From NCBI GenBank assembly GCA_965214195.1, contig OZ243943.1, forward strand, positions 1,271,776-1,335,775: a DNA stretch of 64,000 bases, in the 5' to 3' direction. Of this stretch, positions 21,924 to 27,634 are shown one piece after another. Both the position numbers and the translations under genes were made by a program. The notes below the pieces were generated by a model. It did not search any database, was not told the DNA's origin, and saw only the letters and a program-made list of their open reading frames with translations. Source of the stretch: an uncultured Granulicella sp. (GTDB taxonomy: Bacteria > Acidobacteriota > Terriglobia > Terriglobales > Acidobacteriaceae). The first letter of the stretch is position 1, and every line of letters begins with the position of its first letter.

Positions 21924-22763
21924 ATGAAGTACGAGATTGTTGGCGGCAAGGTACAAACGCGGGCGCTCGAATATCACATTGCCGACCACTGCAACCTGCG
22001 CTGCGATCATTGCTGCTCTTACTCTCCAATCCTGAAAAAGTGGCTTGCTGATCCTGTGGAATTCGAGAGCGATCTGCGCGCGGTGGGCGAGGTGATCGAG
22101 CCGCGATTCCTGAAGATTGTCGGGGGCGAGCCTTTGCTGCATCCGGAGCTTGAACGTCTACTCTGCGTAGCGAAAACACTTCCCATTGGCCGCCGGCTTC
22201 AACTTACGACGAACGCCCATCTTATCGACCGGCTCACGCCGCGCGGCTGGGAAAGCATCGATATGCTGACGGTATCGCTGTACCCGGAGCCAGCCCTGCC
22301 CAAGGAGCGAATCCGCTTCATCGCGCGGGAAGCGAGGCAAAGGAATGTTGAGGTGAATTGGAAGGTGCAGGATAAGTTTACCTGTCTAGATCGTGACCAG
22401 GTGGCGAGTTCTGAGGAGGCGGAGGAGACCTTCCGCAACTGCTGGATCAGGCATCGTTGCCACAGCATCAAGCAGGGCCGCTTTTATAGCTGCACACGGC
22501 CGCAATATGTGCAGAAATTTGCGGGCGAGCCAGCCAGATATCTTGCTGATGGCATTGCGCTGGGAGGGCCGGACGCTGCGGTACTCGCAGGAAGGATCAA
22601 GCAGCACCTTGAGCGAAGCGAGCCGCTGCAAACGTGTTTCCTTTGTCAGGGTGGCGATGCGCCGCTCGATACGCATCGCCAGCTTACGCCTTTAGCGGTG
22701 CAGGCAAAGCGCGCCCACTTGGTGAGTTTGTCGCAGATGGTGCCGGCGGCGGGGGAAAGATGA
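21924..22763 (+). CDS. Radical SAM protein with Cys-rich C-terminal (twitch/SPASM-like) extension
   Basis: HCNLRCDHC (CxxxCxxC), GGEPLLHP and LTTNA; additional CWIRHRC, FYSCTR and CFLC. Confidence 0.9.
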   Translation: MKYEIVGGKVQTRALEYHIADHCNLRCDHCCSYSPILKKWLADPVEFESDLRAVGEVIEPRFLKIVGGEPLLHPELERLLCVAKTLPIGRRLQLTTNAHLIDRLTPRGWESIDMLTVSLYPEPALPKERIRFIAREARQRNVEVNWKVQDKFTCLDRDQVASSEEAEETFRNCWIRHRCHSIKQGRFYSCTRPQYVQKFAGEPARYLADGIALGGPDAAVLAGRIKQHLERSEPLQTCFLCQGGDAPLDTHRQLTPLAVQAKRAHLVSLSQMVPAAGER

Positions 22764-23722
22764 CGGAGTGGCAGCCATTGTTTCTGCACCCACGTACGGG
22801 AAGGAGCACTGCCCACCTGCGCGAGATCTATGGCTGGTGCTCGCCGAAAGAGCGGCAATTGTCCTTTGACTTTTACAACCTTTATCCGGCAGGCAACGGG
22901 ATCGGCTCGCTCACGCCGTTTGTGGGAATTCTGCAGGGCCAGGGGCCTTTAGCCGATGGCTGCCATCTGGTGAGTAGCAGTGAAAGCGGCAAGGCAAGTC
23001 TTCAGGAGCGTCTGAGCCATGCGCTTGTAGAAGCCCTGCTTGACAGCAAGGAGGTTGCGATCGCGGTCAGCGGGGGCGTGGACTGCTGGTTGCTGGCTGC
23101 GCTTTGCCAAAAGCTTGGCTACAGCGTTTGCGGCTGGTACCTGGAAAGTGGACTGCCGGGATACTGCGAGCGTGAGCAAATGCTGCGCTTGTCGGATGCG
23201 CTTGGAATCGAGTGCCGGTGCCTACGAGTGGCTGCGAGCGACTTCGTCGATTGCCTTGCCGAGTTCACTGCAGTGACGCAGATGCCTGTCTACAATCTGC
23301 ATCCTGTGTCCAAGTGGCTGCTTGCTAGGGGGCTTCGCGAGCAAGGCATCACGACCGTGGTGACGGGCGATGCGGCCGACCAGGTGATGCGTTGGGATTG
23401 GGATTGCGACCTGCTGCCAATCACGATCAGCTGTTTCAAAGGCGCCGGGATCCAAATGGTTGCGCCATTCATGGCGGACGACGTCATTGCTTTCTGCAGG
23501 CAGCCTTTCGCGGATAAAGAGCCAATTCGAAAGCTGGCCCGTGACCTTGGCGTGCCTTCGATCGCCAAGCAAGCATCCTCGTTTCCACCGTTGGCTCTGC
23601 CTGCATGGCCGCGGGCTTCGCTACCAACTTCAGGAGCCGCGCCGGACCAGCTTGCCTGTCTTGCCTATACGACAGGCGTGCTGCAGCAGTGGCTCGAAGG
23701 CGGTTTGCCATGTGCGGGATAG
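22760..23722 (+). CDS. Stand-alone asparagine-synthetase C-terminal (adenylating) domain protein
   Basis: AVSGGVD PP-loop, VVTGDAADQV, APFM and DKEPIRKLA; no N-terminal Cys/Ntn glutaminase domain. ATGA overlap with the radical SAM gene. Confidence 0.75.
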   Translation: MTEWQPLFLHPRTGRSTAHLREIYGWCSPKERQLSFDFYNLYPAGNGIGSLTPFVGILQGQGPLADGCHLVSSSESGKASLQERLSHALVEALLDSKEVAIAVSGGVDCWLLAALCQKLGYSVCGWYLESGLPGYCEREQMLRLSDALGIECRCLRVAASDFVDCLAEFTAVTQMPVYNLHPVSKWLLARGLREQGITTVVTGDAADQVMRWDWDCDLLPITISCFKGAGIQMVAPFMADDVIAFCRQPFADKEPIRKLARDLGVPSIAKQASSFPPLALPAWPRASLPTSGAAPDQLACLAYTTGVLQQWLEGGLPCAG

Positions 23723-25488
23723 GCGGCATTGTTCGCACCGCCGGGGTGCAGCCGCGGGATCGCGGGTGCGTTACGCGCTTGGAGAAGCTGTTGCTGCATC
23801 GCGGCCCGAATGGCTCCGGCAACTTCAGTGATCATTTCTGCGCGCTTACGCAGACTCGGCTCGCGCTGGTTGGCCCGGCGCTCATGCCACTGCCGGTCCG
23901 GTCTTCCGATGGCCGCTACGTGCTGGTCTACAACGGCGAGGTCTACAACTTCAAAGAACTCCGTCAGGAGCTAGCGGCCACGGCACAGTTTGCCTTGGAG
24001 ACCGACACGGAAGTCGTGCTGGCGGCGTACCTGCGGTGGGGGGAGGAATCGCCGAAGCACTTCAACGGCATGTTCGCCTTCTTTGTCTGGGACACCCAGG
24101 AACGGCGGGGGTTTGCCGCGTGCGACCCACTGGGCATCAAGCCTTTCTTCTATGCAAGCGAGCCTGGCTATTTCGTGTTCGCGTCAGAAGCAGGCGCGCT
24201 TATAGAAAGCGGCGCGTGGCGCTTCTCTCCGAACGCGGAGGCGATTGCCGAATGCCTGCTGGCACCTTACTTCAGCTCCGTGACGGCGCTGCCGTTTGCA
24301 GGCGTGGAGCGGCTCAAGCCCGGCCACATTCTGCGCTTGGACGATGGTCGCACCACGGTCCAGCCCTACTTCAGCTTTGTGCATGGGCGCAGCGAAGTAG
24401 CGGATGCGGAAGGGTTAGCCGGACAGATTGCGGAAGCTGTAGAGCAAGCCACGCTGACCAGTCTGCGGGCCGACGTGATGGTAGGCATCTTCCTGAGTGG
24501 CGGTGTGGATTCCAGCTTGCTCGCAGCGGTTGCGCAGCGGCACACTGCGACGCCTCTTACTGCGTGGACCATTTCGTACGAAGGAGAGCAAACAGTTGAC
24601 TATTCCCGGTCGCTGATTGTGCGCAGTGCCGACAAGAATTTTGCAGCCAAGGTGGCCAGGGACCACGGTTGCGTCCACTCGCTGGTGGCGGTCGACGAAG
24701 CGTGCTACGAGGCGGCATTGCTGAGAACATTGCGCGCAAACGACCTGATCTGCGCGTGGGAGCAGGAAGTTTCACAACAGTTGCTAGCCGAAGCAGCGGC
24801 AAAGCAGGTGAAGGCGGTACTGGTGGGTGATGCAGCGGACGAGACCCACTTTGGCTATTCTTTTCTGCTGGACGCTAGTCGCATCGATTCGCCACGGCAT
24901 GTCATCGGGTTCTTCGGGACCGCGCCGCTGCGACGCTCGTTTCTCGCTGATGCGCCCAGCTACTTCACCGATAAGTACCAGCGCTTTGCGGAGGAACGGG
25001 GCTATAGCTGGTCGAACGAGAGAGAGCAACGTTTGGCGATGTCATGCCTGATTTACCACTTGTGGCTGACGCGCCTGATGCATAACGGTGACGTTCATCT
25101 TATGTCGCACTCGCTGGAGGGAAGAGTGCCGTTTGGTGATATTGGCTTGCTGCGCCTGGCGCAACAGGTGCCGCAGGAACTGGGATACCGCAACGGTATT
25201 GAAAAGTGGCATCTGCGGCACGCGGCCGAGCGCTTTATCGAGCCGGCAATCGCATGGCGGCCAAAGTCCGCGCTGACGAAAAATCTACGCGCCAACGCAA
25301 TCATCCATCGCCACTTCGTCCGCACCTGGCGAACATCAGGCGCGCATCTTGAGCCTTACGTGGACAGCGATGCCGTTGATCGGATTGCTAACGCGGAAGC
25401 CCCACAGACCGAACGGGAGATCGGCATCTGCTTCCGCATGCTAGCGGTAATGAGCTGGTTTGACCGATTCAGCAAGGCCATGCCATGA
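23710..25488 (+). CDS. AsnB-family glutamine-hydrolysing amidotransferase
   Basis: MCGIGG (Cys nucleophile), HRGPN, YNGEVYNF, TDTEV, DPLGIKPFFY, FLSGGVDSS, VLVGDAADE and SLEGRVPF. Confidence 0.9.
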   Translation: MCGIGGIVRTAGVQPRDRGCVTRLEKLLLHRGPNGSGNFSDHFCALTQTRLALVGPALMPLPVRSSDGRYVLVYNGEVYNFKELRQELAATAQFALETDTEVVLAAYLRWGEESPKHFNGMFAFFVWDTQERRGFAACDPLGIKPFFYASEPGYFVFASEAGALIESGAWRFSPNAEAIAECLLAPYFSSVTALPFAGVERLKPGHILRLDDGRTTVQPYFSFVHGRSEVADAEGLAGQIAEAVEQATLTSLRADVMVGIFLSGGVDSSLLAAVAQRHTATPLTAWTISYEGEQTVDYSRSLIVRSADKNFAAKVARDHGCVHSLVAVDEACYEAALLRTLRANDLICAWEQEVSQQLLAEAAAKQVKAVLVGDAADETHFGYSFLLDASRIDSPRHVIGFFGTAPLRRSFLADAPSYFTDKYQRFAEERGYSWSNEREQRLAMSCLIYHLWLTRLMHNGDVHLMSHSLEGRVPFGDIGLLRLAQQVPQELGYRNGIEKWHLRHAAERFIEPAIAWRPKSALTKNLRANAIIHRHFVRTWRTSGAHLEPYVDSDAVDRIANAEAPQTEREIGICFRMLAVMSWFDRFSKAMP

Positions 25489-26666
25489 AGGCCGCGTTCG
25501 CAATTGTGCCGGAAATGGGCCACATCAATCCGTACATCGGGCCGGCGCAGGCGCTGGAGTATGCCGGCCATGAGGTCGTCATCGCGGCGCCCGGCGACAT
25601 TGCCGCTCAGATTGGAAGAGCCGGGTTAGCTTTCCGTCACGATCTGATCCGGCGTGGCGCCAGTGTGCGGGTCACGCGCGGCGCAGAACTGGTCGAATTG
25701 ATCGAGGATAATGAACGGCTGCACCAGTGGGTTGAGCATTTGCTGCTGAGCGATCTGCAGGAGGAAGTGGAATCCGTCCGGAAGTGGCTCCGCCGCGAGC
25801 GTGCCGATGTGGTCGTGGTGGACCCGCTGTACTATGCCGCGGCGATTGCGGCGGAGGTCGAGGGTCTCCCCTGGGCGTCGCTGTCCAACTCGTTAAATCC
25901 TGTGCTTCCACCGGAACTTGGTAGCGCCTTGTTGCGCTCTGTGAAACGTCTGAGTGCGGCCCGTGCCAAGCTTTTCCGCAGCTTTGCGGTAGAAGCCTCT
26001 TTCGCCGGTTGCGACGTGTTGTCTCCTTACCTGACCGTCGCCTTCACGACTGAAGCCCTGGTGGGCAAGCCGCCGGCTGGCGTAACGCTGGTGGGCCCAT
26101 CGCGACCTCTGCACAACCGCGGCGATGAGACGGCGCTACGTCAGCTGCCAAACGACCGGCCAATCATCTATGTTTCATTCGGCAGTCAAATCTACTTCTG
26201 GCCTGAACTTTTCGAGACTCTTTATGCTGCGGGGACATCGCTGCACGCTCATCTGGTTCTAAGCATCGGCGATCTTGTAGACGATCCCCGATGGTCTGCG
26301 CCCCGGAAGCACTGTGACGTGTACCGCTATGCTCCGCAGCCGCAGATACTGCCCCATGCTGCCATTTTTGTGACGCATGGCGGAGCCAATTCTGTGAATG
26401 AGGCAATCACAGCGGGGGTGCCGATGCTCCTTTCGCCCATGTGCAACGACCAGTTTCATCAGGCTTTCTTTGTTGAAAGGGCCGGGATCGGATACGTGGA
26501 GAACCTGCTGCGGATGCCGGTGGAGCGAGTCGTCGAAAAGCTGCAGGCCCTGCTGCACGACTCTGATGTGCGCTCAAGGATGGCGGCGGTCTCGAAGTCC
26601 TACCAGACGAATGGGGCCTCAGTGGCGGCGGCCATGATCGCCGGGCTTGCGGAGCGGCGCGTATGA
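25485..26666 (+). CDS. Glycosyltransferase family 1 (MGT/UDP-glycosyltransferase type)
   Basis: GHINP, IYVSFGS and PQPQIL..AAIFVTHGGANSVNEAITAGVPMLLSPMCNDQ (PSPG-like box). Confidence 0.9.
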   Translation: MKAAFAIVPEMGHINPYIGPAQALEYAGHEVVIAAPGDIAAQIGRAGLAFRHDLIRRGASVRVTRGAELVELIEDNERLHQWVEHLLLSDLQEEVESVRKWLRRERADVVVVDPLYYAAAIAAEVEGLPWASLSNSLNPVLPPELGSALLRSVKRLSAARAKLFRSFAVEASFAGCDVLSPYLTVAFTTEALVGKPPAGVTLVGPSRPLHNRGDETALRQLPNDRPIIYVSFGSQIYFWPELFETLYAAGTSLHAHLVLSIGDLVDDPRWSAPRKHCDVYRYAPQPQILPHAAIFVTHGGANSVNEAITAGVPMLLSPMCNDQFHQAFFVERAGIGYVENLLRMPVERVVEKLQALLHDSDVRSRMAAVSKSYQTNGASVAAAMIAGLAERRV

Positions 26667-27634
26667 CCAGACCTCGATTGATCATTCCGATCGGCATCAC
26701 GGCGCGCGACGAAGCTGCAAATATCCTCGGTCTGCTATGTTCGATGCGCGTGGCAATTTCTCGCGCGTCGCAGGAACTTGCGTGCACCTTCCACATCCAT
26801 GTTCTTCTCAATGACAATCGCGACAACACTGCGCAGCTTCTGGCAGCCTTCCATGACATCACCGTCTGGCATACGTCTGGCGGCATTGTCGAGGCACAAC
26901 GCACCCTGGCACAATTTTGCGGCCGCTGGGCCCCTTTTCTGGTGTTTTCTGACGCCGATATTTTGGTAGACCCAGAGGCGTTGCTTGAAGTCTCGCGCGC
27001 AATGCTGACTTGCCCCGAGTTAGAAATAGCCTACGCCGAAAAACGTCCTCTCCCGCCGGTCCACCAGACGACGTTAGCGACTGCGCTTTACCTTTACAAC
27101 CTGCGCGAGGGATACCAGACGACTCGCCACTACTGCAACGGACAATTTTTCGCCATTCGCCGGTGGGACATCCCAACCGCTGCAGCACTTAACTGGGACA
27201 GGACCCGGGACACGCCTTTTTTGAACCTGGCGGCGGGCATCCGCGTCGACGATATCTACCTCTCGCGTGACGTCCTGAGCCGCGCGGGACCCGGTGCGAT
27301 CCAATGCGTGCCTGCGGATATCTTTTACCGCCCGCCGGCTACGCTTCGCGGCATGTTCCGCAAATATCAACGCATGCGCCTGGAGCTTGAACGACTCGAC
27401 CACTATTTTCCTGCCATGCGTAGTGCACACATGCGGTGGGGTAGGCGCGGACATGACAAGAGCAAAGTCAGCAATGCATCAATTGTTGAACAGATGCACT
27501 TCCGCGTGTTCCAGGCAGCACTTATCCTCTGTAAGGTCGCCTATCACGTTCAGCGATGGTACTTCACGCACCTCTCCCCAGTACCCTGTCCGACTTGGTT
27601 TCCGATAACCGAAACAAAGGAGCAAATCCCTTGA
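26663..27634 (+). CDS. Glycosyltransferase family 2-like (GT-A fold)
   Basis: ITARDEAANI, LNDNRDNT, FSDAD (DxD), NGQFFAIRR, VDD and RKYQRM. Confidence 0.7.
   Translation: MTRPRLIIPIGITARDEAANILGLLCSMRVAISRASQELACTFHIHVLLNDNRDNTAQLLAAFHDITVWHTSGGIVEAQRTLAQFCGRWAPFLVFSDADILVDPEALLEVSRAMLTCPELEIAYAEKRPLPPVHQTTLATALYLYNLREGYQTTRHYCNGQFFAIRRWDIPTAAALNWDRTRDTPFLNLAAGIRVDDIYLSRDVLSRAGPGAIQCVPADIFYRPPATLRGMFRKYQRMRLELERLDHYFPAMRSAHMRWGRRGHDKSKVSNASIVEQMHFRVFQAALILCKVAYHVQRWYFTHLSPVPCPTWFPITETKEQIP

What the first reader, a model, noticed from the sequence alone, without database searches (positions are those of the whole stretch)
22760..25488. Paired Asn-synthetase homologues that both read GDAAD instead of GEGxD; one lacks the glutaminase domain
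Seen: the short protein has SGGVD...TGDAADQ and no N-terminal Cys/Ntn domain; the long one has SGGVDSS...VGDAADE and an intact MCG/NGE glutaminase. Established: true AsnB has GEG(S/A)DE, with the Glu implicated in aspartyl-AMP formation, while non-Asp members (beta-lactam synthetases GYG(A/S)D, lasso cyclases GxGGD) diverge here. Inference: neither enzyme makes asparagine. The short one may adenylate a carboxylate and use an amine on the substrate (lactam or amide bond) or ammonia from its partner, possibly as a heterodimer.
Basis: partly seen in the sequence, partly recalled or inferred. Interest (0 to 1): 0.55.

Follow-up and report, generated by a model that had tools for sequence, protein, structure and literature searches.

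The report
Two retooled asparagine-synthetase-like enzymes in sugar operon
Two neighbouring genes look like asparagine synthetase but almost certainly do another job: they belong to an unstudied, horizontally spread sugar-tailoring operon found in six bacterial phyla, including Burkholderia, where they probably make amide bonds on an unknown glycoside.

Summary
The short protein (22760-23722, 320 aa) has SGGVD and TGDAADQ and lacks the catalytic two-thirds of the glutaminase domain. The long one (23710-25488, 592 aa) has MCG, NGE, SGGVDSS and GDAADE. Asp replaces the catalytic Glu348 of E. coli AsnB in both, and is invariant in both families.

Both genes sit in a translationally coupled cassette: a SpeY/HygY-like twitch radical SAM enzyme, short, long, GT1, a GT2-like protein and a ROK-like protein. 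I found 80 such genome loci in six phyla. The constant core is radical SAM + short + GT1. The long enzyme is adjacent in only 38 loci, and five Burkholderiales genomes with the core have no long-clade homologue, so an obligate heterodimer is unlikely.

The long enzyme is not housekeeping. It was not found in 300 other Acidobacteriota genomes sampled, and many complete same-genus genomes have no AsnB at all. In two trees, the nearest relatives of each family carry Glu, so Glu-to-Asp apparently arose twice.

Asp at this position is not rare in the wider AsnB family, so the motif alone is not diagnostic.

Best reading: two separate amide-forming tailoring enzymes of an unknown glycoside. The same operon was noted earlier in this scan (e1-5226105).

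The parts
21924..22763 (+). Twitch radical SAM enzyme, homologue of SpeY/HygY (sugar-carbinol dehydrogenase/epimerase). First gene of the cassette.
   Evidence: Pfam Radical_SAM. phmmer to PDB 7wzv E 2.8e-28 and profile E 6.9e-56. AF2 pLDDT 96.2. Foldseek TM 0.85 and rmsd 1.7-2.3 to SpeY. Invariant C23/C27/C30 plus C173/C190/C238/C241.
22760..23722 (+). Short AsnB-superfamily synthetase (320 aa) with no glutaminase active site. Core member of the cassette.
   Evidence: Pfam Asn_synthase 81-210. AF2 pLDDT 95.4. VIA Z 21.3 to BLS, 21.1 to CarA, 20.5 to AsnB. 79 orthologues in 80 loci.
23069..23083 (+). PP-loop SGGVD of the short protein (S104-D108)
   Evidence: invariant S104 G105 G106 D108.
23363..23383 (+). 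TGDAADQ of the short protein. D204 matches E348, D207 matches D351 and Q208 matches E352 of E. coli AsnB.
23567..23569 (+). K270 of the short protein, aligned with catalytic Lys449 of E. coli AsnB. K253 (23516-23518) aligns with Lys429.
   Evidence: both invariant.
23710..25488 (+). Long AsnB-family glutamine amidotransferase (592 aa). Founding member of a VLVGDAADETH[FY]G clade and an accessory member of the cassette.
   Evidence: Pfam GATase_7/6 plus Asn_synthase, and TIGR01536 at 334.6 bits. Best PDB match is TsnB9, 7ylz, E 3.7e-45. Clade defined.
24496..24516 (+). PP-loop SGGVDSS of the long protein
24826..24858 (+). GDAADETHFGY of the long protein. Asp stands in place of AsnB Glu348.
25485..26666 (+). 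GT1 (MGT/UDPGT-type) glycosyltransferase. Core member of the cassette.
   Evidence: Pfam UDPGT and NCBIfam MGT. PDB YjiC/OleD-type GTs. Found in 73 of 80 loci.
26663..27634 (+). GT2-like (GT-A, DAD motif) protein. Accessory.
   Evidence: Weak Pfam GT2 hits. Found in 33 loci.
27556..28410 (+). ROK-like protein (start 27556 or 27631). Accessory.
Evidence: No Pfam hit. tblastn finds relatives in about 26-31 loci.

Best explanation
The two genes encode two different, non-housekeeping members of the asparagine-synthetase (class II amidotransferase / PP-loop) superfamily. Both serve as tailoring enzymes of a horizontally mobile glycoside-building cassette.

The cassette's invariant core has three parts:
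- a GT1 glycosyltransferase;
- a SpeY/HygY-type twitch radical SAM enzyme, which oxidises or epimerises a sugar carbinol;
- the short enzyme.

The short enzyme keeps the whole adenylation machinery: the PP-loop, the Mg/acid residues E137, D204 and D207, and the two catalytic lysines K253 and K270. It has lost the glutaminase active site and the segment that in AsnB closes over aspartate. I infer that it adenylates a carboxylate on the pathway intermediate. The acyl-AMP would then be captured by free ammonia or by an amine of the substrate, giving an amide or a lactam, without help from the long enzyme.

The long enzyme is a complete glutamine-dependent amidotransferase. I infer that it converts a (second or alternative) carboxylate of the same scaffold into a carboxamide, as an optional decoration present in about half of the cassettes.

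What is shown: gene structure, motifs, fold, family membership, cassette conservation, independence of the short from the long, and non-housekeeping distribution. What is inferred: carboxylate adenylation, the nucleophiles, and the identity of the substrate, which remains unknown.
For: Motifs and gene junctions.

Adenylation residues are conserved. Invariant S104 G105 G106 D108, Y135, E137, H181, G203 D204 A206 D207, K253, R257, K270. They align to AsnB SGGLDS, D279, E348, D351, K429 and K449.

Fold: pLDDT 95.4. VIA Z 20-21 to BLS, CarA and AsnB, against about 13 for other PP-loop enzymes.

Cassette: 80 loci in Pseudomonadota 44, Acidobacteriota 19, Verrucomicrobiota 9, Myxococcota 3, Planctomycetota 3 and Bdellovibrionota 1.
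- rSAM in 77, short in 79, GT1 in 73, long in 38.
- A PIG-L deacetylase follows in about 21 loci.
- An FkbM methyltransferase and an APH-type kinase are present in about 37 Burkholderiales loci.

The rSAM is a SpeY homologue.

The long enzyme has intact glutaminase and synthetase residues. Its best solved relative, TsnB9, amidates a non-amino-acid carboxylate.

The long enzyme is not housekeeping. GatB and AsnRS are present and AsnA is absent.

Five core-only genomes lack any long-clade homologue.

Two trees give the short family and the long clade as separate groups, each with support 100 (SH-aLRT and FastTree local support). The sisters of both carry Glu.
Against: - No substrate, product or activity is known for any member of either family.
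- The long protein passes the NCBIfam asparagine-synthase cut-off and is the only intact AsnB-type enzyme in a genome that has AsnRS and no AsnA. From memory, unverified here, a carboxylate side chain at position 348 suffices for some aspartyl-AMP formation in E. coli AsnB.
- The short protein also gives weak sequence hits to LarE, TtuA and QueC-type PP-loop enzymes and carries a mostly conserved Cys136, so a non-carboxylate or sulfur chemistry is not excluded.
- Tight overlap of short and long (22, 13 or 1 nt in 33 of 37 pairs) is compatible with a complex where both are present.
- The trees are quick/FastTree trees on a sample biased towards relatives of the long protein.
Confidence: 0.55

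Rival explanations
1. Heterocomplex. The long enzyme's glutaminase domain supplies ammonia to the short enzyme's synthetase site, so the pair acts as one split amidotransferase.
For: The genes overlap by 13 nt here and by 1-25 nt in 34 of 37 pairs. The short protein keeps a vestige of the N-terminal domain, the part that matches AsnB from about residue 139 to the start of the synthetase domain. One metagenomic protein, P0313, reads as a short-long fusion.
Against: 35 loci have rSAM-short-GT1 with no long gene. Five such genomes have no long-clade homologue anywhere, with best hits of 120-150 bits to generic paralogues. The long enzyme has its own complete PP-loop, Asp/Asp/Glu pocket and lysines. 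Many Bryobacterales short proteins (about 218 aa) lack the vestigial N-terminal piece yet sit beside a long gene. P0313 would bury Cys1 and looks like a frameshift or a gene-calling artefact.
Confidence: 0.12
2. The long enzyme is simply this organism's asparagine synthetase, with a conservative Glu-to-Asp change, and happens to lie in the operon.
For: TIGR01536 gives 334.6 bits against a cut-off of 267.1. It is the only intact AsnB-type protein in the genome, where AsnRS is present and AsnA absent. The D351, E352, K429 and K449 equivalents are kept.
Against: The clade co-travels with the cassette across phyla. It was not found in 24 same-genus and 300 same-phylum genomes sampled, and several 98-100% complete same-genus genomes lack any AsnB above cut-off. 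GatB is present, so the tRNA-dependent route is available. The loop matching AsnB T322/R325 reads P/W and position 387 reads N across the clade. Its sister group is TsnB9-like.
Confidence: 0.07
3. The short enzyme is not a carboxylate adenylase. It would be a PP-loop enzyme that activates a carbonyl or amide oxygen (for example acetamido to acetamidino, like PseA/WbuX-type sugar amidotransferases), or a sulfur transferase like LarE or TtuA.
For: Weak hits to LarE (E 1.9e-6), TtuA, MnmA and QueC models. Cys136 in the GYCE motif is conserved in 85-95% of members. The context includes N-acetyl-sugar-type genes, with a PIG-L deacetylase in about 21 loci.
Against: Structure and sequence place it with AsnB, BLS and CarA (Z 20-21) well above LarE, NAD and GMP synthetases (Z 12-14). 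It keeps the AsnB-specific K429, K449 and D351 equivalents. Cys136 is replaced by S, G, D or E in several members, and the other two cysteines (C216, C225) are confined to Acidobacteriota.
Confidence: 0.15

Closest known systems
Glutamine-dependent asparagine synthetase B (E. coli AsnB, PDB 1ct9; human ASNS, 6gq3)
   Same: Long: same two-domain architecture, with Cys1/R49/NGE/D98 in the glutaminase part and PP-loop, D279, D351, E352, Y357, K429 and K449 in the synthetase part. Short: same synthetase fold (Z 20.5), same PP-loop and lysines.
   Different: Glu348 (human Glu364, which is required for activity; PMC6748925) is Asp in both. Long: S346 is V, G349 is A, and the T322/R325 loop reads P/W. 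Short: no glutaminase active site, E352 is Q, and the segment matching AsnB 357-391 is missing. Both are operon-bound and patchily distributed rather than housekeeping.
TsnB9 hydroxyamidotransferase of trichostatin biosynthesis (PDB 7ylz)
   Same: Best solved relative of the long enzyme (E 3.7e-45, aligned 1-521). TsnB9-like GEAADE proteins form the sister group of the long clade. It is an AsnB-type enzyme that amidates a natural-product carboxylate rather than aspartate.
   Different: TsnB9 keeps Glu (GEAADE). It sits in a different gene context, and only about 157 bits are shared.
Beta-lactam synthetase and carbapenam synthetase (PDB 1jgt/1mbz, 1q15/1q19)
   Same: Top structural matches of the short enzyme (Z 21.3 and 21.1). 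They are AsnB-derived enzymes with no glutaminase activity that use a substrate amine as the nucleophile after adenylation.
   Different: They keep a full-length but inactive N-terminal domain and are about 500 aa. From memory, they have Tyr at the Glu348 position. The short enzyme is 320 aa (about 218 aa in some) with Asp.
SpeY (spectinomycin) and HygY (hygromycin B) twitch radical SAM enzymes (the neighbouring gene, which sets the pathway type)
   Same: The upstream gene matches SpeY at profile E 6.9e-56, TM 0.85 and 26% identity. The radical SAM cysteines and four auxiliary-cluster cysteines align.
   Different: There are no aminocyclitol genes in the cassette. An extra invariant Cys179 lies where SpeY has Ser. 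I infer, without a test, that this may mark an epimerase like HygY (title of the HygY paper as cited in PMC10991966).
AsnB-like uronamide-forming amidotransferases of O-antigen and nucleoside-antibiotic clusters (e.g. WbpS, WbtH, gougerotin pathway). Recalled from memory, not tested here.
   Same: AsnB-family enzymes next to glycosyltransferases, thought to turn a sugar carboxylate into a carboxamide.

Membership tests
Glutamine-dependent asparagine synthetase (AsnB, EC 6.3.5.4) | N-terminal Cys1 Ntn glutaminase with R49, N74-G75-E76 and D98 | tested here: met
   Met for the long protein (D33 is Asn in this copy). Not met for the short protein, which begins at the equivalent of AsnB residue about 139.
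Glutamine-dependent asparagine synthetase (AsnB, EC 6.3.5.4) | PP-loop SGGxDS plus the catalytic Lys429 and Lys449 equivalents | tested here: met
   Both proteins.
Glutamine-dependent asparagine synthetase (AsnB, EC 6.3.5.4) | Glu348 in GEG(S/A)DE (human Glu364, essential) | tested here: not met
   Asp in both proteins. It is invariant in 40 of 40 aligned long-clade representatives and in all 61 short sequences. PMC6748925 reports E364A and E364Q as inactive.
Glutamine-dependent asparagine synthetase (AsnB, EC 6.3.5.4) | Aspartate-binding elements (T322/R325 loop and the K376-D384-R387 segment) | tested here: not met
   Short: the segment matching AsnB 357-391 is absent, and the loop is replaced by the invariant YNLHPV(S/A)K motif. 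Long: P/W in the loop and N at 387. The alignment in this region is less certain.
Glutamine-dependent asparagine synthetase (AsnB, EC 6.3.5.4) | Score above the NCBIfam TIGR01536 cut-off | tested here: met
   Long: 334.6 against 267.1. Short: 38.6, not met. The model is broad: relatives that pass it carry E, D, Q, L or V at position 348.
Glutamine-dependent asparagine synthetase (AsnB, EC 6.3.5.4) | Housekeeping distribution (needed for Asn supply) | tested here: not met
   not found in relatives sampled, many of which have no AsnB. GatB is present.
Glutamine-dependent asparagine synthetase (AsnB, EC 6.3.5.4) | Makes asparagine from aspartate | not testable with these tools
   Needs an enzyme assay or complementation.
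AsnB-derived synthetases without glutaminase activity (beta-lactam synthetase, CarA) | AsnB-type synthetase fold with PP-loop and catalytic Lys | tested here: met
   Short protein: Z 21.3 and 21.1, with 283-300 residues aligned. K270 is aligned to K449.
AsnB-derived synthetases without glutaminase activity (beta-lactam synthetase, CarA) | Full-length but inactive N-terminal domain | tested here: not met
   The alignment starts at BLS residue 137 and CarA residue 122. Some orthologues lack even this remnant.
AsnB-derived synthetases without glutaminase activity (beta-lactam synthetase, CarA) | Intramolecular amide (lactam) formation | not testable with these tools
   The substrate is unknown.
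PP-loop sulfur transferases (LarE, TtuA, NcsA) | Catalytic Cys, or three Cys binding an iron-sulfur cluster | tested here: inconclusive
   Cys136 is 85-95% conserved. C216 and C225 occur only in Acidobacteriota. Structural Z is about 13, against 21 for AsnB-type enzymes.
SpeY/HygY twitch radical SAM enzymes (the neighbouring gene) | CxxxCxxC motif, twitch auxiliary-cluster cysteines and a shared fold | tested here: met

The most novel reading that the evidence does not exclude
The short protein founds a new class of minimal AsnB-derived amide ligases. Together with a SpeY/HygY-like radical SAM enzyme and a GT1, it would build a so far unknown amide-linked glycoconjugate, for example an acid joined to a deacetylated amino sugar in the manner of mycothiol or bacillithiol assembly, or an aminoglycoside-like pseudosaccharide. 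This product would be made by bacteria from Burkholderia cepacia complex species to soil Acidobacteriota and Verrucomicrobiota. The twice-evolved Glu-to-Asp change would be the specificity switch for that shared substrate.
Probability: 0.25. Interest if true: 0.7.

Novelty: new variant of a known kind. Interest (0 to 1): 0.5.

Why it matters
AsnB-family genes are routinely annotated as asparagine synthase. This case shows two clades, defined by sequence motifs and gene context, for which that label is very probably wrong.

It also ties them to a compact cassette with no NCBIfam family assignment and no description I could find. The cassette occurs in six phyla, including genetically tractable Burkholderia and Paraburkholderia species.

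The residue that commits AsnB to aspartyl-AMP formation has apparently been replaced in the same way twice, in two enzymes of one operon. That gives a concrete handle on how substrate choice is set in this superfamily. Finding the product would reveal a new glycoside or cell-surface modification.

Tried and rejected
Gene context therefore came from the search for related loci and my own tblastn and ORF clustering.
- The PADLOC scan gave only weak viperin and QueC hits, so an anti-phage system is unlikely.
- The ESM Atlas returned only generic asparagine-synthase-related clusters.
- A search for fused forms of the short protein among longer proteins found none, which is weak evidence.
- No Rfam riboswitch lies upstream of the operon. 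No promoter-like site was found, and terminator-like hits were below the shuffled expectation.
- I considered an iron-sulfur or LarE-like reading of the three cysteines seen in Acidobacteriota. I dropped it as the main reading because only Cys136 is broadly conserved.
- I considered a RiPP or lasso-peptide reading (rSAM plus AsnB-like). It was rejected because the rSAM is SpeY-like, the genes abut with no conserved small ORF, and the upstream neighbours differ between clades.
- I tested whether the Burkholderiales 332-aa protein is the GT2-like protein in disguise. It shows no similarity.
- Literature searches for the cassette, for PDB 7wzv and for the E. coli Glu348 paper found nothing usable. 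Statements on Glu348 mutants of E. coli AsnB, on BLS Tyr348 and on WbpS/WbtH therefore rest on memory.
- A slow MAFFT run timed out and was replaced.


Full report
**Observation**

The region holds two overlapping plus-strand genes.

The short gene runs from ATG 22760 to TAG 23722 and encodes 320 aa.
- Its ATG overlaps the stop of the upstream gene (ATGA).
- Its N-terminus matches those of its homologues.
- It carries SGGVD at 23069-23083 and TGDAADQ at 23363-23383.

The long gene starts at ATG 23710 (MCGIGG), 13 nt before the short gene's stop. It ends at 25488 and encodes 592 aa.
- It carries SGGVDSS at 24496-24516 and GDAADETHFGY at 24826-24858.
- Pfam sees only the first half of the Asn_synthase domain in the short protein. 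In the long protein it sees GATase_6/7 plus a full Asn_synthase domain.

HMMER alignments to E. coli AsnB put Asp of both proteins opposite Glu348 of GEGSDE. I took the E. coli sequence from NC_000913.

**Conservation of the motifs**

- GDAADE is present in 113 of the 120 closest long homologues, down to about 39% identity.
- It is also present in about 41 clusters at 50% identity, which share VLVGDAADETH[FY]G.
- [TS]GD[GA]ADQ is present in essentially all short homologues, and D204 is invariant.
- The short family consensus is GDGADQ. The exact GDAAD string shared with the long protein is a lineage detail, while the Asp is family-wide.

**The short protein**

An AlphaFold model built from 61 sequences has mean pLDDT 95.4. 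VIA-align gives:
- Z 21.3 to beta-lactam synthetase (chain residues 137-491);
- Z 21.1 to carbapenam synthetase;
- Z 20.5 to E. coli AsnB (residues 139-507);
- Z 18.1 to TsnB9;
- about Z 13 to LarE, NAD and GMP synthetases (Foldseek agrees).

It is therefore an AsnB-type synthetase domain preceded by a remnant of the last third of the N-terminal domain. Cys1, R49, N74-E76 and D98 are all absent. Some Bryobacterales orthologues (about 218 aa) lack even the remnant.

Profile alignment gives these equivalences to E. coli AsnB:

| Short protein | E. coli AsnB |
|---|---|
| S104-D108 | PP-loop |
| GLPGYCE (E137) | GLPGSPD (D279) |
| D204 | E348 |
| D207 | D351 |
| Q208 | E352 |
| PF(M/L) | PFLD |
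| K253 | K429 |
| K270 | K449 |

All of these residues except Q208 (conserved in at least 90% of sequences) are invariant in the 61-sequence alignment. The enzyme therefore looks catalytically competent for adenylation.

Two parts differ from AsnB. The segment matching AsnB 357-391 is missing, and the T322/R325 loop is replaced by the invariant motif YNLHPV(S/A)K. In human ASNS, Glu364, Asp367, Glu368 and Asp400 form the pocket that holds the amino group of aspartyl-AMP, and the E364A and E364Q variants are inactive (PMC6748925). The short protein keeps two of these acids and lacks the region that holds the fourth.

**The long protein**

The glutaminase residues are intact, as are the PP-loop, D279, D351, E352, Y357, K429 and K449. 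Across the whole clade:
- S346 is Val;
- E348 is Asp;
- G349 is Ala;
- the 322/324 loop reads Pro/Trp;
- position 387 is Asn.

Its best solved relative is the hydroxyamidotransferase TsnB9 (E 3.7e-45), ahead of E. coli AsnB (E 3.2e-30).

**Gene context**

A genome-wide scan with the short family found 80 loci. tblastn with the window's proteins and ORF clustering show one cassette.

| Component | Loci (of 80) |
|---|---|
| Radical SAM | 77 |
| Short | 79 |
| GT1 | 73 |
| Long, beside the short gene | 38 |
| GT2-like | 33 |
| ROK-like | 26-31 |

- A PIG-L-type deacetylase follows in about 21 loci, and an FkbO/Hyg5-like chorismatase precedes the cassette in a few.
- In about 37 Burkholderiales loci the long, GT2-like and ROK-like genes are replaced by an FkbM-type methyltransferase, an unknown 332-aa protein and an APH-family kinase. 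These loci include B. cenocepacia, B. contaminans, B. lata, Bordetella, Achromobacter, Paraburkholderia and Trinickia.
- By phylum: Pseudomonadota 44, Acidobacteriota 19, Verrucomicrobiota 9, Myxococcota 3, Planctomycetota 3, Bdellovibrionota 1.

The core is therefore radical SAM + short + GT1.

**The radical SAM neighbour sets the pathway type**

It matches PDB 7wzv at E 2.8e-28, and at 6.9e-56 with a family profile. Its model (pLDDT 96.2) superposes on that entry at TM 0.85. The entry is the twitch radical SAM dehydrogenase SpeY of spectinomycin biosynthesis.

SpeY and its relative HygY act on a sugar carbinol of a glycoside. The HygY paper title is cited in PMC10991966. The family here has an extra invariant Cys179 where SpeY has Ser. 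I read this, as an inference only, as a hint of HygY-like epimerase chemistry.

Together with two glycosyltransferases, a kinase and often a deacetylase, this points to glycoside tailoring. A peptide-modification or nucleotide pathway fits less well.

**Is the long enzyme the cell's asparagine synthetase?**

For this reading:
- It is the only intact AsnB-type protein in the 4.06-Mb genome. The other PF00733 hits are a Cys1-less paralogue with SAGLDSS and no acidic motif, plus MnmA and QueC.
- AsnRS is present and AsnA is absent.

Against it:
- GatB is present.
- None of 24 same-genus genomes sampled has the short gene.
- Several same-genus genomes that are 98-100% complete have no TIGR01536-level AsnB at all.
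- No long-clade homologue was found in 300 Acidobacteriota genomes from 186 genera.

The genus therefore does not depend on AsnB, and the long gene behaves as acquired cargo. Some genomes are flagged unpublished (G008, G029, G034-G036, G038, G040). The claims above do not rest on them specifically.

**Do the two enzymes work as one?**

- 35 loci have the core without the long gene.
- In five such genomes the best match to the long protein is a generic paralogue of 120-150 bits or nothing. Clade members score at least about 260 bits.
- The short enzyme therefore does not need the long one.
- Where both are present, they overlap by 22, 13 or 1 nt in 33 of 37 pairs. This fits co-translation but does not show a complex.

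**Origin of the shared Asp**

In an IQ-TREE quick tree and a FastTree tree of the synthetase parts:
- the short family and the long clade are each monophyletic (support 100) and lie apart;
- the short family's sisters are full-length GEGSDE and GEGADE proteins (support 100 and 89);
- the long clade's sister group is mostly GEAADE, GEGADE and GECADE (SH-aLRT 99; FastTree support 67).

The Glu-to-Asp change thus seems to have happened twice. This fits a shared substrate feature. The sample is biased and the trees are quick ones.

**Is Asp diagnostic?**

No.
- Among the non-clade representatives nearest to the long protein, position 348 reads E 45, D 32, Q 19.
- Among 15 TIGR01536-passing AsnB-like proteins of relatives it reads E 7, D 3, Q 2, L 2, V 1.

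Position 348 is a generally variable, probably specificity-linked site in proteins labelled asparagine synthase. The full signatures (VLVGDAADETH[FY]G, and TGD[GA]ADQ with YNLHPVSK) mark these two clades.

**Verdict**

These are two distinct, very probably non-asparagine-forming AsnB-superfamily enzymes in a mobile, uncharacterised glycoside-tailoring cassette.
- The short one is most likely a stand-alone carboxylate-adenylating amide or lactam synthetase of the core pathway.
- The long one is most likely an optional glutamine-dependent carboxamide-forming step.
- The substrate and the product are unknown.

Noticed in passing
window 21924-22763: The first gene of the operon is a clear homologue of the twitch radical SAM dehydrogenase SpeY (PDB 7wzv; TM 0.85). 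It has an extra invariant Cys179 where SpeY has Ser, which might mark a HygY-like epimerase.
   Followed up: partly
window 23710-25488 (residue 33 of the mature protein, HRGPNGSG): The glutamine-binding Asp33 of the Ntn domain is Asn in this copy. 37 of 41 clade representatives keep Asp, so glutaminase efficiency might be altered here.
   Followed up: no
window 23700-23722, and the 3' ends of short genes in L001-L019: The conserved C-terminal tail CAASPA of short-family proteins is a by-product of the overlap with the next gene's MCGIAG start read in another frame. It is not a functional motif.
   Followed up: partly
protein P0313 (metagenomic, 566 aa): It reads as the C-terminal half of a short protein fused to the N-terminal half of a long protein. 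It is probably a frameshift or a gene-calling artefact, because the fusion would bury Cys1.
   Followed up: no
own genome, outside the window: G000:C1:1703621-1705558: A second AsnB-like paralogue with SAGLDSS and VGNRGN in place of the acidic motif. It could be a lasso-cyclase-like or other divergent member.
   Followed up: no
own genome: The genome has AsnRS and GatB but no AsnA and no canonical AsnB. Several complete same-genus genomes have no AsnB at all. This suggests asparagine is made on tRNA, as in Thermus and Deinococcus.
   Followed up: partly
L021:15675-16505, L022:15327-16100, L026:15516-16412; L021:8018-9127, L022:8339-9091: A PIG-L-family deacetylase follows the ROK-like gene in about 21 loci. 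An FkbO/Hyg5-like chorismatase precedes the radical SAM gene in a few Verrucomicrobiota and Bdellovibrionota loci. These hint at a deacetylated amino sugar and an aromatic acid in some variants.
   Followed up: partly
L062:7100-13651 (B. cenocepacia NCTC13227) and about 36 other Burkholderiales loci: A variant cassette: FkbM methyltransferase, unknown 332-aa protein, radical SAM, short enzyme, GT1, then an APH-family kinase. It has no long enzyme.
   Followed up: partly
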